64,000 bases of DNA, taken from NCBI RefSeq assembly GCF_009931435.1, contig NZ_CP043414.1, one strand, 5' to 3'. The notes under the pieces are model-generated. The model searched no databases and was not told where the DNA came from. It saw only the letters and a program-made list of their open reading frames with translations. The DNA is from Escherichia coli. GTDB lineage: Bacteria > Pseudomonadota > Gammaproteobacteria > Enterobacterales > Enterobacteriaceae. The position numbers were made by a program, and so were the translations under genes. This document shows, piece by piece, positions 61,226-63,124 of the stretch. Every line of letters begins with the position of its first letter. The stretch's first letter is position 1.

Positions 61226-63124
61226 TTACATCACCAGACGGCGAATGTCAGACAGCGTGTTGTTAATGATGGTAATGAAACGGGCACCATCAGCACCGTC
61301 GATCACGCGGTGGTCGAAGGAGAGAGAAATCGGCAGCATCAGACGCGGCACGAACTCTTTACCATTCCACACCGGCTCCATCGCGGACTTGGAAACGCCG
61401 AGGATAGCCACTTCCGGCGCGTTCACAATCGGCGCGAAGTGGGTAGTACCCAGGCCGCCGATGCTGGAGATGGTGAAGCAACCGCCCTGCATTTCGCCCG
61501 CAGTCAGCTTACCGTCACGCGCTTTCTTAGAAATAGTCATCAGCTCGCGAGACAGCTCGATGATGCCTTTCTTGTTGACGTCTTTGAATACCGGAACAAC
61601 CAGACCGTTCGGGGTATCCACCGCCACACCGATGTTGATGTATTTCTTCAGGGTCAGACGCTGACCGTCTTCCGACAGAGAACTGTTGAAGCGAGGCATC
61701 TGCTCAAGTGCCGCAGCAACGGCTTTCATGATGAAGACAACTGGGGTTATCTTCACATCCAGCTTACGTTTCGCTGCTTCTTCGTTCTGCTGTTTACGGA
61801 ACGCTTCCAGCTCAGTGATATCGGTTTTGTCGAAGTGAGTAACATGCGGGATCATCACCCAGTTACGGCTCAGGTTCGCACCAGAGATTTTCTGGATGCG
61901 GCCCAGTTCCACCTCTTCGATTTCACCAAACTTGCTGAAGTCCACCTTCGGCCACGGCAGCATGCCAGGGATACCGCCGCCAGTTGCCGCCGGAGCCGCT
62001 TCTGCACGTTTGATCGCTTCTTTCACGTAAGCCTGAACGTCTTCGCGCAGGATCCGACCTTTACGGCCAGTACCCTTCACTTTCGCCAGGTTAACGCCGA
62101 ATTCGCGTGCCAGACGGCGGATCAGCGGAGTCGCGTGAACGTAAGCGTCGTTTTCAGCAAACTCAGATTTGCCTTCTGCTTTCGCAGCCGGTGCTGCTGC
62201 CGGAGTTTCAGCTTTTGCTGCCGGAGCCGGCGCCGGCGCTGCCGCTTCCTGTTTCGCAGGAGCTGCCGCAGGTGCTGCGCCTTCAACTTCGAAGATCATA
62301 ATCAGCGAGCCAGTTTTCACTTTGTCGCCAACGTTGACTTTCAGTTCCTTCACGACGCCAGCAAACGGAGCCGGAACTTCCATAGAAGCTTTATCGCCTT
62401 CTACGGTGATCAGTGACTGCTCAGCGGCAACTTTGTCGCCCACTTTCACCATCACTTCGGTCACTTCAACTTCGTCACCGCCGATATCCGGAACGTTAAC
62501 TTCTTTCACGCCAGCCGCTGGTGCAGGGGCCGCTGCCGGAGCCGCTTCCTGTTTAGCCGCCGGAGCTGCCGCGCCTGCTTCACCCGCGACTTCGAAGACC
62601 ATAATCAGCGAGCCGGTAGACACTTTGTCACCCACGGTCACTTTGATCTCTTTCACGGTGCCTGCAAACGGAGCCGGAACTTCCATAGAAGCCTTGTCGC
62701 CTTCTACGGTGATCAGCGACTGTTCAGCTTCAACTTTGTCGCCCACTTTCACCAGGATTTCGGTCACTTCGACTTCATCGCTGCCGATATCCGGAACATT
62801 TACGTCTTTTGCCGCCGCAGCCGCGGGTGCTGCTGCCGGAGCTGCTTCTTTCTTCTCTTCTGCCTGAGCAGGTGCAGCGTCAGCTGCACCGTCGGCGGAA
62901 TCGAAAATCATAATCAGTGCGCCGGTCTGGGTTTTATCGCCAACAGAGACTTTGATCTCTTTAACGATACCCGCCTGCGGAGACGGTACTTCCATAGAGG
63001 CTTTGTCGCCTTCTACGGTGATCAGCGACTGTTCGGCTTCAACTTTGTCGCCCACTTTGACCAGGATCTCGGTGATTTCAACTTCATCAGCCCCGATGTC
63101 CGGTACTTTGATTTCGATAGCCAT
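61226..63124 (-). CDS. aceF: pyruvate dehydrogenase E2 (dihydrolipoyllysine-residue acetyltransferase)
   Basis: 632-aa ORF with three N-terminal lipoyl domains (EGDKASMEV x3), Ala/Pro linkers and catalytic DHRVIDG. Confidence 0.95.

What the first reader, a model, noticed from the sequence alone, without database searches (positions are those of the whole stretch)
62250..63124. Three near-identical ~300-bp repeats in aceF (lipoyl domains)
The three lipoyl domains are also highly similar at nucleotide level, for example GTCGCCTTCTACGGTGATCAG and CCGGAACTTCCATAGAAGC recur. They are substrates for homologous deletion or duplication that would change lipoyl-domain number.
Basis: partly seen in the sequence, partly recalled or inferred. 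Interest (0 to 1): 0.2.

Follow-up and report, generated by a model that had tools for sequence, protein, structure and literature searches.

The report
Three lipoyl-domain repeats in aceF
This is the well-known triple repeat encoding the three lipoyl "swinging-arm" domains of the pyruvate dehydrogenase E2 subunit (aceF); the copies are only 72-84% identical, and rare natural strains have lost or gained a copy by recombination between them.

Summary
The repeat is real, but it is an ordinary, known feature. aceF (window 61226-63124, minus strand, 632 aa) begins with three in-frame tandem units with periods of 309 and 303 nt. Each unit encodes one lipoyl domain plus an Ala/Pro linker. "Near-identical" is an overstatement. 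Codon-aligned identity is 72-78% over whole units and 75.0, 77.6 and 83.8% over the 228-nt folded cores. Each quoted string occurs exactly twice, not three times. Protein conservation plus codon bias alone would give 72-76% identity. The excess is clear only for lip2-lip3.

Among 5,426 complete E. coli genomes, about 5,411 keep three domains. Eight carry two-domain alleles. In six the junction lies in the identical tract at the lipoyl-lysine motif, and in two it lies in the linkers. Four related isolates carry an out-of-register 192-nt deletion. No complete E. coli genome has one or four domains. Four-domain alleles occur in two complete Salmonella chromosomes and in many draft or metagenome assemblies, some of which are clearly assembly artefacts.

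The triplication is older than the Escherichia-Salmonella split, and there are signs of patchy lip2/lip3 gene conversion. The repeats were described in 1983 and engineered in 1985. Interest is low.

The parts
61226..63124 (-). [quoted passage not shown]
   Evidence: ORF list. NCBIfam NF008814 equivalog, 1098.6 bits, full length. PDB 7b9k E. coli E2p aligns over residues 1-632.
62888..63115 (-). lip1 folded core (aa 4-79), outermost lipoyl domain
   Evidence: Codon alignment of the three units. Pfam PF00364 reports 3 matched stretches.
62807..62887 (-). Linker 1 (aa 80-106), Ala/Pro/charged-rich. Natural lip2 deletions have junctions here and in linker 2.
   Evidence: DSM 103263 and FDAARGOS_1283 junctions in 13-17-nt shared linker tracts.
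62579..62806 (-). lip2 folded core (aa 107-182)
62504..62578 (-). Linker 2 (aa 183-207)
62276..62503 (-). lip3 folded core (aa 208-283), innermost lipoyl domain
   Evidence: PDB 1qjo (innermost lipoyl domain of E. coli E2p) aligns to residues 206-284.
62141..62275 (-). Linker 3 (aa 284-328). Contains a 6-nt Ala-Pro insertion (62234-62239) relative to K-12.
   Evidence: Its own 33-nt imperfect repeat lies at 62174-62236.
62033..62140 (-). Peripheral-subunit (E3) binding domain, aa 329-364
   Evidence: Pfam PF02817.
61232..61924 (-). Catalytic acetyltransferase core domain, aa 401-631
   Evidence: Pfam PF00198. PDB 4n72.
63002..63004 (-). Codon of lipoyl-lysine K41 (lip1)
   Evidence: GDKAS motif position.
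62693..62695 (-). Codon of lipoyl-lysine K144 (lip2)
62390..62392 (-). Codon of lipoyl-lysine K245 (lip3)
63003..63034 (-). lip1 copy of the 32-nt tract identical between lip1 and lip2 (partner at 62694-62725). The junction of the lip1/lip2 hybrid alleles maps about here.
   Evidence: longest exact run. (01_3327 junction at aa 42-48 / 145-151).
62664..62692 (-). lip2 copy of the 29-nt tract identical between lip2 and lip3 (partner at 62361-62389). The junctions of the commonest two-domain and four-domain alleles map about here.
61199..61218 (-). G+C-rich hairpin just downstream of the aceF stop codon, flanked by A/T runs (terminator-like)
   Evidence: 8-pair stem, 7 G-C pairs. The scan reported it on the + strand. 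The stem is palindromic, and the T run on the minus strand can be read.

Best explanation
The region is the 5' third of aceF. It consists of an ancient in-frame triplication of a unit of about 300 nt. Each unit encodes one lipoyl domain of about 76 residues, which carries the lipoyl-lysine in a GDKAS turn, followed by a flexible Ala/Pro-rich linker. The three domains act as redundant swinging arms that carry acetyl groups between the E1, E2 and E3 active sites.

At the DNA level the copies have diverged to 72-84% identity. Most of what remains is forced by purifying selection on the protein together with the codon bias of a highly expressed gene. A modest excess of identity, strongest between lip2 and lip3, reflects shared ancestry and occasional short gene-conversion patches.

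Short tracts of perfect identity survive around the lipoyl-lysine motif (32 nt for lip1/lip2, 29 nt for lip2/lip3) and in the linkers (13-17 nt). These act as rare crossover or slippage points, so a unit is occasionally deleted or duplicated in frame. Selection nevertheless keeps three domains in more than 99.7% of E. coli genomes.

Shown here: the gene identity, the repeat structure, the identity values, the natural recombinant alleles and where their junctions lie. Inferred: the molecular pathway (RecA-dependent recombination versus replication slippage) and the selective maintenance of three copies.
For: Identity and architecture are given. Repeat geometry and identity are given.

Back-translation null model: the protein sequences plus local codon usage predict 73.1%, 71.6% and 76.0% nucleotide identity. 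The observed values are 77.6%, 75.0% and 83.8%. The observed value was reached in 51, 229 and 0 of 5000 simulations.

Age of the triplication: orthologous domains in Escherichia and Salmonella are 93.0%, 88.6% and 85.5% identical, against 75-84% for paralogs. Quartet sites favour orthology 33-37 to 0-2 for lip1 against the other two. For lip2 against lip3 the count is only 13 to 7-9, and the concerted sites cluster at core nt 102-198.

Recombination products in complete E. coli genomes:
- lip1 plus a lip2N/lip3C hybrid in C4, C2, VTB97379v and Rb-50. C4, VTB97379v and Rb-50 were compared and sit on different SNP backgrounds, 12-22 SNPs apart in aceF.
- A lip1N/lip2C hybrid plus lip3 in 01_3327 and 03_3013.
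- Linker-to-linker loss of lip2 in DSM 103263 and FDAARGOS_1283.
- A 192-nt out-of-register deletion between the two VGDKV half-motifs, inspected in strains 463 and 447. Strains 439 and 446 show the same match pattern.

Duplications: P0002 equals the predicted unequal-crossover product. In Salmonella CP075029.1, lip3 is duplicated and the two copies are 100% identical.

Literature: Stephens et al. 1983 and Guest et al. 1985 are cited in PMC8421416. PMC5013485 reports natural loss of one or two lipoyl domains in Serratia symbiotica and, citing Guest et al. 1985, states that a single domain suffices for enzyme activity and protein function. PMC10579247 cites Dave, Guest and Attwood 1995, whose title states that lowering lipoyl-domain content lowers growth rate and yield.
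Against: The repeats are too diverged for efficient homologous recombination. lip1 and lip3 share at most 20 identical nt, and no one-domain allele was found.

No four-domain allele exists in 5,423 complete E. coli genomes. At least one database protein (P0043/L009) is an E. coli-type aceF with permuted domain halves in a metagenome contig, which is most easily explained as misassembly through the shared central tract. Some copy-number variants in draft data may therefore be artefacts.

The gene-conversion signal rests on 7-9 sites and a single outgroup. With K-12 as the Escherichia sequence, the contrast with the control site pattern is weak (7 against 3).

Junctions were mapped against K-12 as a proxy parent, which differs from each variant allele at 17-36 positions. 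The junction intervals are therefore approximate.
Confidence: 0.9

Rival explanations
1. The nucleotide similarity is purely a by-product of amino-acid conservation and codon bias in a highly expressed gene. The copies do not interact at the DNA level, and there is no meaningful recombination or conversion.
For: Back-translating the three domain proteins with local codon usage already gives 72-76% identity, close to the observed values for lip1-lip2 and lip1-lip3. Orthologs are closer than paralogs. Quartet sites give lip1 no concerted signal: 33-37 against 0-2.
Against: lip2-lip3 identity (83.8%) exceeded all 5000 simulations. The longest exact runs (32 and 29 nt) were reached in only about 1.3% of simulations. 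There are 7-9 concerted sites between lip2 and lip3. Natural alleles have junctions in the shared tracts.
Confidence: 0.2
2. The two-domain, four-domain and partly deleted aceF alleles in the databases are assembly artefacts caused by the repeat. The repeat is then not a practically relevant recombination substrate in nature.
For: P0043/L009 has permuted domain halves in a MEGAHIT contig. P0013, P0018, P0024 and P0031 look like inter-species chimeras from metagenome assemblies. Four-domain alleles are absent from complete E. coli genomes. Loop mis-traversal in an assembly graph would give exactly the central-tract two-domain and four-domain products.
Against: The deletion alleles come from finished circular chromosomes. 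The junction types are diverse and include linker junctions and an out-of-register one. One protein accession is shared by strains C4, C2 and Rb-50, from cows and from a human in Japan. The 192-nt deletion allele recurs in separately assembled related isolates from sputum and blood. Repeats only 78-84% identical should not collapse in long-read assemblies. Natural domain loss is published for S. symbiotica.
Confidence: 0.15
3. The three copies are kept similar mainly by ongoing concerted evolution, that is, frequent gene conversion across all three units.
For: Within Salmonella the central tracts of lip2 and lip3 are 97% identical, more than either is to its Escherichia ortholog (84-90%). Concerted sites cluster at core nt 102-198.
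Against: lip1 shows 0-2 concerted sites against 33-37 orthology sites. Even for lip2/lip3, orthology sites outnumber concerted ones, 13 to 7-9. Overall, orthologs are closer than paralogs. Conversion is therefore patchy and limited to lip2/lip3.
Confidence: 0.1

Closest known systems
E. coli K-12 AceF (E2p, UniProt P06959; PDB 7b9k, 1qjo), whose three tandem lipoyl domains were described from the aceF sequence by Stephens et al. 1983
   Same: [quoted passage not shown] The lipoyl-lysine positions are the same (K41, K144, K245). The protein is 99% identical, and the gene differs from K-12 at 49 of 1893 aligned nucleotides. The unit periods are the same, 309 and 303 nt.
   Different: The window allele is 632 aa rather than 630, because of a 6-nt Ala-Pro insertion in linker 3 (62234-62239). 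lip2 has T in place of N in KV(N/T)VGDKV. It is about 97% identical to most E. coli aceF genes and 99.3% identical to a small group of strains.
Engineered E. coli aceF alleles with one, two or up to nine lipoyl domains (Guest et al. 1985; Machado, Clark and Guest 1992; Dave, Guest and Attwood 1995)
   Same: The same in-frame removal or addition of whole repeat units, giving hybrid domains. The natural C4-type and 01_3327-type alleles are hybrid-domain products of this kind.
   Different: Those alleles were built in vitro, whereas the alleles found here are in natural isolates. The content of Machado 1992, and the way the 1985 deletions were made, are recalled from memory and were not read. The 1985 and 1995 papers were seen only as citations.
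AceF of Serratia symbiotica with one or two lipoyl domains lost during genome reduction (PMC5013485)
   Same: Natural, in-frame loss of lipoyl domains from a three-domain enterobacterial AceF.
   Different: That case is fixed in endosymbiont lineages under genome erosion. In E. coli the variants are sporadic, at about 0.2% of complete genomes.
E2p of other organisms with different numbers of lipoyl domains (one to three tandem domains, as stated in PMC8421416)
   Same: The same domain family and the same modular, repeat-based architecture.
   Different: Those are differences in copy number between species, not polymorphism within a species.

Membership tests
Lipoyl domain (Pfam PF00364 Biotin_lipoyl) | Sequence matches the family profile above the curated threshold, once per repeat | tested here: met
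   PF00364: E-value 3.9e-67, 222.5 bits (cutoff 22.1), 3 matched stretches.
Lipoyl domain (Pfam PF00364 Biotin_lipoyl) | Conserved modifiable lysine in a D-K-A turn near the middle of the domain | tested here: met
   A GDKAS motif occurs in each unit, giving K41, K144 and K245.
Lipoyl domain (Pfam PF00364 Biotin_lipoyl) | Flattened beta-barrel fold of about 80 residues | tested here: met
   Met by near-identity to solved structures: 1qjo and 2k7v align to residues 206-284/293, and 7b9k aligns over the full length. No structure prediction was run.
Lipoyl domain (Pfam PF00364 Biotin_lipoyl) | The lysine is actually lipoylated and reductively acetylated | not testable with these tools
   This needs biochemistry. 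It is established for the K-12 ortholog (from knowledge of the literature).
AceF / E2p of the pyruvate dehydrogenase complex (NCBIfam NF008814, TIGR01348) | Full-length match to the equivalog model above its cutoff | tested here: met
   NF008814: 1098.6 bits against 722, covering residues 1-632. TIGR01348: 1039.1 bits against 552.1.
AceF / E2p of the pyruvate dehydrogenase complex (NCBIfam NF008814, TIGR01348) | Domain order: lipoyl domain(s), peripheral-subunit-binding domain, catalytic domain | tested here: met
   PF00364 x3, PF02817 at residues 329-364, PF00198 at residues 401-631.
AceF / E2p of the pyruvate dehydrogenase complex (NCBIfam NF008814, TIGR01348) | Operon context aceE-aceF-lpdA | tested here: met
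   The ORF at 63139-63999 matches the C-terminal part of TIGR00759 aceE (profile positions 598-884). The ORF at 59597-61018 matches TIGR01350 dihydrolipoyl dehydrogenase at 501.5 bits against 408.8. Both are on the minus strand, in the expected order.
Intragenic tandem repeat subject to unequal recombination or slippage (copy-number-variable domain repeat) | Head-to-tail direct repeats whose period is a multiple of 3 | tested here: met
   Periods of 309 and 303 nt.
Intragenic tandem repeat subject to unequal recombination or slippage (copy-number-variable domain repeat) | Tracts of perfect identity long enough for homologous pairing. The threshold of about 23-27 bp for E. coli RecA-dependent recombination is recalled from the literature and was not checked here. 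| tested here: inconclusive
   The longest exact runs are 32 nt (lip1/lip2) and 29 nt (lip2/lip3), only just above that threshold. lip1/lip3 reaches 20 nt, which is below it. The linker and 463-type junctions use only 5-17 nt of identity, which points to slippage rather than RecA.
Intragenic tandem repeat subject to unequal recombination or slippage (copy-number-variable domain repeat) | Natural alleles that differ by whole repeat units, with junctions inside shared tracts | tested here: met
   Eight two-domain alleles in complete E. coli genomes, four-domain alleles in two complete Salmonella chromosomes and in drafts, and mapped junctions.
Intragenic tandem repeat subject to unequal recombination or slippage (copy-number-variable domain repeat) | A measured rearrangement rate in this strain | not testable with these tools
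   This needs a fluctuation or reporter assay.

The most novel reading that the evidence does not exclude
Lipoyl-domain number in aceF is a low-frequency, recurrent natural polymorphism in E. coli and Salmonella. About 0.15% of complete E. coli genomes have two domains, arising independently on different backgrounds. The preferred crossover point is the tract encoding the lipoyl-lysine motif, and lip2 and lip3 are additionally homogenised there by gene conversion. One clinical clone carries an out-of-register fusion that places two lipoylation motifs in one aberrant domain. I found no paper describing this within-species variation, but the library searched is incomplete.
Probability: 0.7. Interest if true: 0.25.

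Novelty: already known. Interest (0 to 1): 0.12.

Why it matters
It matters little for discovery. The three lipoyl-domain repeats of aceF have been textbook material since the gene was sequenced in 1983, and the dispensability of extra domains was shown in 1985.

The practical value is modest, in three respects.
- The repeat is a trap for assemblers and annotators. One metagenome contig has permuted domain halves, and PGAP labels two intact two-domain alleles as pseudogenes.
- The survey puts numbers on how strongly three domains are maintained in E. coli (about 99.7% of complete genomes) and shows where the rare rearrangements occur.
- The natural two-domain strains are ready-made material for testing the reported fitness cost of fewer lipoyl domains.

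Tried and rejected
1. Using coverage in a plain megablast of the repeat region to count deletion alleles. This failed because off-diagonal matches between repeat units fill in the missing part, so every record still showed at least 80% coverage. I replaced it with synthetic recombinant queries for two, four and one domains. These separate the variants by identity band and number of pieces.

2. P0043 was fetched as a presumed three-domain AceF from another genus, for an ortholog/paralog test. It turned out to be an E. coli-type gene with shuffled domain halves, probably a misassembly. I used Salmonella loci instead.

3. P0036 (738 aa, 82% identical, four domains) has no encoding contig on record.

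4. Literature searches for reports of natural lipoyl-domain copy-number variation or evolved in-frame deletions in aceF found nothing relevant. PMC6561319 and PMC12959161 mention aceF but not domain number.

5. I considered and rejected the reading that the repeats are recent or near-identical. Third-position identity of 54-68% and the domain-by-domain orthology with Salmonella show the triplication is old.

6. I did not run the genome contigs or metagenome scans, the representative-protein search or structure prediction. The finding is a known feature and these costly searches would not change the verdict.

Full report
**What is there**

The window ends in the pyruvate dehydrogenase operon on the minus strand. 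It holds a 3' fragment of aceE (63139-63999), aceF (61226-63124, 632 aa) and lpdA (59597-61018). The aceF product matches the NCBIfam equivalog NF008814 over its full length (1098.6 bits; cutoff 722). Pfam finds three Biotin_lipoyl stretches, an E3-binding domain at residues 329-364 and a catalytic domain at residues 401-631. The solved E. coli E2p chain 7b9k aligns over residues 1-632, and the innermost lipoyl domain structure 1qjo aligns to residues 206-284.

**Checking the observation**

The repeat finder reports one family of three 300-nt direct copies at 62209-62508, 62512-62811 and 62821-63120, spaced 303 and 309 nt apart. Tandem Repeats Finder gives period 303, 2.7 copies and 80% matches. 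I aligned the units codon by codon.

| Pair | Whole-unit nt identity | 228-nt core nt identity | Longest exact run |
|---|---|---|---|
| lip1-lip2 | 75.0% | 77.6% | 32 nt |
| lip1-lip3 | 71.7% | 75.0% | 20 nt |
| lip2-lip3 | 77.6% | 83.8% | 29 nt |

Third-position identity in the cores is only 54-68%. As a chance control, in-frame ungapped identity of the cores to the rest of aceF averages 28% and never exceeds 38%.

The repeat is therefore real and far above chance, but "near-identical" is wrong. They are the reverse complements of the codons for LITVEGD and ASMEVP, which flank the lipoyl-lysine. The lysine codons lie at 63002-63004, 62693-62695 and 62390-62392.

**Why the DNA is as similar as it is**

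I back-translated the three domain proteins at random, using codon usage from the non-repeat part of aceF, lpdA and the aceE fragment.

| Pair | Expected nt identity | Observed | Simulations reaching observed (of 5000) |
|---|---|---|---|
| lip1-lip2 | 73.1% | 77.6% | 51 |
| lip1-lip3 | 71.6% | 75.0% | 229 |
| lip2-lip3 | 76.0% | 83.8% | 0 |

Most of the nucleotide similarity is thus forced by protein conservation and codon bias. A modest excess remains and is clear only for lip2-lip3.

I compared the window with Salmonella aceF (locus L013). Orthologous domains are closer (93.0%, 88.6% and 85.5%) than paralogs (75-84%), so the triplication is older than the Escherichia-Salmonella split. I then counted quartet site patterns. 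For lip1 against either other domain, 33-37 sites support orthology and 0-2 support concerted change. For lip2 against lip3, only 13 sites support orthology and 7-9 support concerted change. The concerted sites cluster at core nt 102-198, and no orthology site lies between nt 79 and 158. This suggests patchy gene conversion between lip2 and lip3 around the lysine motif. The evidence is thin: few sites and one outgroup.

**Survey of lipoyl-domain number**

A plain megablast of the repeat region cannot count deletions, because off-diagonal matches between units fill in the missing part. I therefore built synthetic recombinant queries.

*Two-domain query*. This separated 5,413 ordinary genomes, which fall in the 80-90% identity band, from a handful of variants. 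Annotation and dissection of the variants gave four classes:

| Class | Strains | Product | Junction |
|---|---|---|---|
| lip1 + lip2N/lip3C hybrid | C4, C2, VTB97379v, Rb-50 | 529 aa | Central identical tract |
| lip1N/lip2C hybrid + lip3 | 01_3327, 03_3013 | 527 aa | Central tract |
| lip2 lost, linker to linker | DSM 103263, FDAARGOS_1283 | 528 and 530 aa | 13-17 nt shared linker tracts |
| 192-nt out-of-register deletion | 463, 447 (inspected); 439, 446 (same match pattern) | 566 aa | Between the VGDKV motif in the C-terminal half of lip2 and the one in the N-terminal half of lip3 |

PGAP labels the 01_3327 and 03_3013 genes as pseudogenes, although the 01_3327 reading frame, which I translated, is intact. 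The out-of-register deletion leaves one aberrant domain with two DKA motifs. Strains 463 and 447 share the protein accession WP_418509931.1.

The first class sits on different SNP backgrounds, 12-22 differences within aceF among C4, VTB97379v and Rb-50. This suggests recurrent events.

*Four-domain query* and *one-domain query*. Neither found a matching allele in complete E. coli genomes.

*Totals.* Of 5,426 complete genomes, about 5,411 have three domains, 8 have two, 4 have the partial deletion and 3 lack the gene. JCL301, a laboratory strain, is one of the three.

**Four-domain alleles elsewhere**

In the large protein collection, 38 of the 120 best hits have four lipoyl-lysine motifs. P0002 (E. 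coli 2875000, also seen on several ENA contigs) has exactly the N-terminal 431 residues that I predicted for a lip3/lip2 unequal crossover in K-12. P0005 is the corresponding lip2/lip1 product.

Two complete Salmonella chromosomes also carry four domains. In CP075029.1, lip3 is duplicated through the linkers and the two copies are 100% identical. CP006575.1 has a more complex mosaic.

Caution is needed with the draft data. Several ENA proteins look like inter-species chimeras (P0013, P0018, P0024, P0031). P0043/L009 is an E. coli-type gene whose domain halves are permuted, which is best explained by an assembler mis-threading the shared central tract. The central-tract two-domain and four-domain products are exactly what mis-traversal of an assembly-graph loop would give. 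The deletion alleles in finished chromosomes are the more trustworthy evidence, particularly those with linker junctions and the 192-nt deletion seen in separately assembled related isolates.

**Mechanism**

Shown here:
- In-frame tandem units.
- Tracts of perfect identity at the lysine motif and in the linkers.
- Natural alleles whose junctions fall in those tracts.

Inferred:
- The 29-32-nt tracts are only just above the minimal length usually quoted for RecA-dependent recombination in E. coli (recalled from the literature, not checked). Overall divergence of about 20% should further suppress it. This fits the rarity of the variants.
- The linker junctions (13-17 nt) and the 463-type junction (5 nt exact within an imperfect motif of about 14 nt) look more like replication slippage.
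- Three copies are retained in about 99.7% of complete genomes. Dave, Guest and Attwood 1995, seen only as a citation, reports in its title that fewer domains lower growth rate and yield. Together these point to selection for three domains. PMC5013485, citing Guest et al. 1985, notes that one domain suffices for enzyme activity and protein function.

**Comparison with what is known**

This is the E. coli-type AceF. The protein is 99% identical to K-12's, and the gene differs at 49 of 1893 aligned nucleotides, plus a 6-nt Ala-Pro insertion at 62234-62239. The three-domain repeat was described when aceF was sequenced (Stephens et al. 1983), and the repeats were genetically reconstructed in 1985 (Guest et al.). 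Both papers are cited in PMC8421416, which also states that the three domains are 73% identical in protein sequence. Natural loss of lipoyl domains is published for Serratia symbiotica (PMC5013485). I found no paper on within-species copy-number variation in E. coli, but the library searched is incomplete.

**Verdict**

The feature is already known, and interest is low (0.12). The only mildly new element is the population survey, which shows rare, recurrent two-domain alleles and the positions of their junctions.

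Noticed in passing
window 62234-62239: The window's aceF has a 6-nt (Ala-Pro) insertion in linker 3 relative to K-12, giving 632 aa instead of 630. 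Even its closest E. coli relative (99.3% identical, NZ_CP169399) has the 1893-nt form. Other genomes show gene-region spans of 1881 and 1902 nt, and protein P0080 has an 8-aa linker motif repeated three times. The Ala/Pro linkers are therefore length-variable in their own right.
   Followed up: partly
window 57777-59522 (+), especially 59154-59385 and 58689-58731: A 581-aa ORF next to lpdA, with no NCBIfam match at E-value 1e-10 or better, contains its own in-frame tandem repeat of 96 nt x 2.4 copies at 86% matches (protein motif RREAARERIQSASPEQRQAVRE.MQTNPQNQQ). It also has a His/Asp-rich tract with a 21-nt repeat.
   Followed up: partly
L007 (NZ_CP074961.1) and L017 (NZ_CP074958.1), aceF: PGAP annotates the two-domain aceF of strains 01_3327 and 03_3013 as a pseudogene ('incomplete; missing N-terminus'). 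In L007, which I translated, the frame is intact from the normal ATG (527 aa) and encodes a lip1N/lip2C hybrid plus lip3. L017 carries the same annotation and gene length but was not translated. This is probably an annotation artefact caused by the shorter length.
   Followed up: yes
L009 (ENA ERZ27229539 k119_5064), gene 1501-3393: A metagenome contig encodes a 630-aa E. coli-type AceF whose three lipoyl domains are made of permuted halves (1N/2C, 3N/1C, 2N/3C). It is most likely a misassembly through the shared central tract, and it is a warning about repeat-number calls from short-read assemblies.
   Followed up: partly
L001 (NZ_CP183105.1) 2501-4201; L015 (NZ_CP183089.1) 901-2601: A Taiwanese clinical E. 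coli clone (strains 463, 447, 439, 446; sputum and blood) carries a 192-nt out-of-register deletion joining the C-terminal half of lip2 to the N-terminal half of lip3. It uses the internal two-fold VGDKV pseudo-repeat of the lipoyl domain. The product has three DKA motifs but only about 2.4 domains' worth of sequence. Whether the fused domain folds or is lipoylated is unknown.
   Followed up: partly
L013 (CP075029.1) 1501-3672; L014 (CP006575.1) 1501-3678: Two complete Salmonella enterica chromosomes encode four-lipoyl-domain AceF (723 and 725 aa). In one, lip3 is duplicated exactly through the linkers. The other (S. Pullorum) is a mosaic with reciprocal lip2/lip3 hybrid domains.
   Followed up: partly
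proteins P0034, P0037: Other in-frame internal duplications occur in E. coli AceF entries. P0034 has a 50-aa duplication inside the E3-binding domain. P0037 has a 38-aa partial duplication inside lip2. I did not check whether these are real or artefacts.
   Followed up: no
window 61199-61218: A palindromic G+C-rich hairpin (8 pairs, 7 G-C) flanked by A/T runs sits just after the aceF stop codon, ahead of lpdA. It looks like a terminator, and promoter-like hexamers for lpdA lie at 61131-61103.
   Followed up: no
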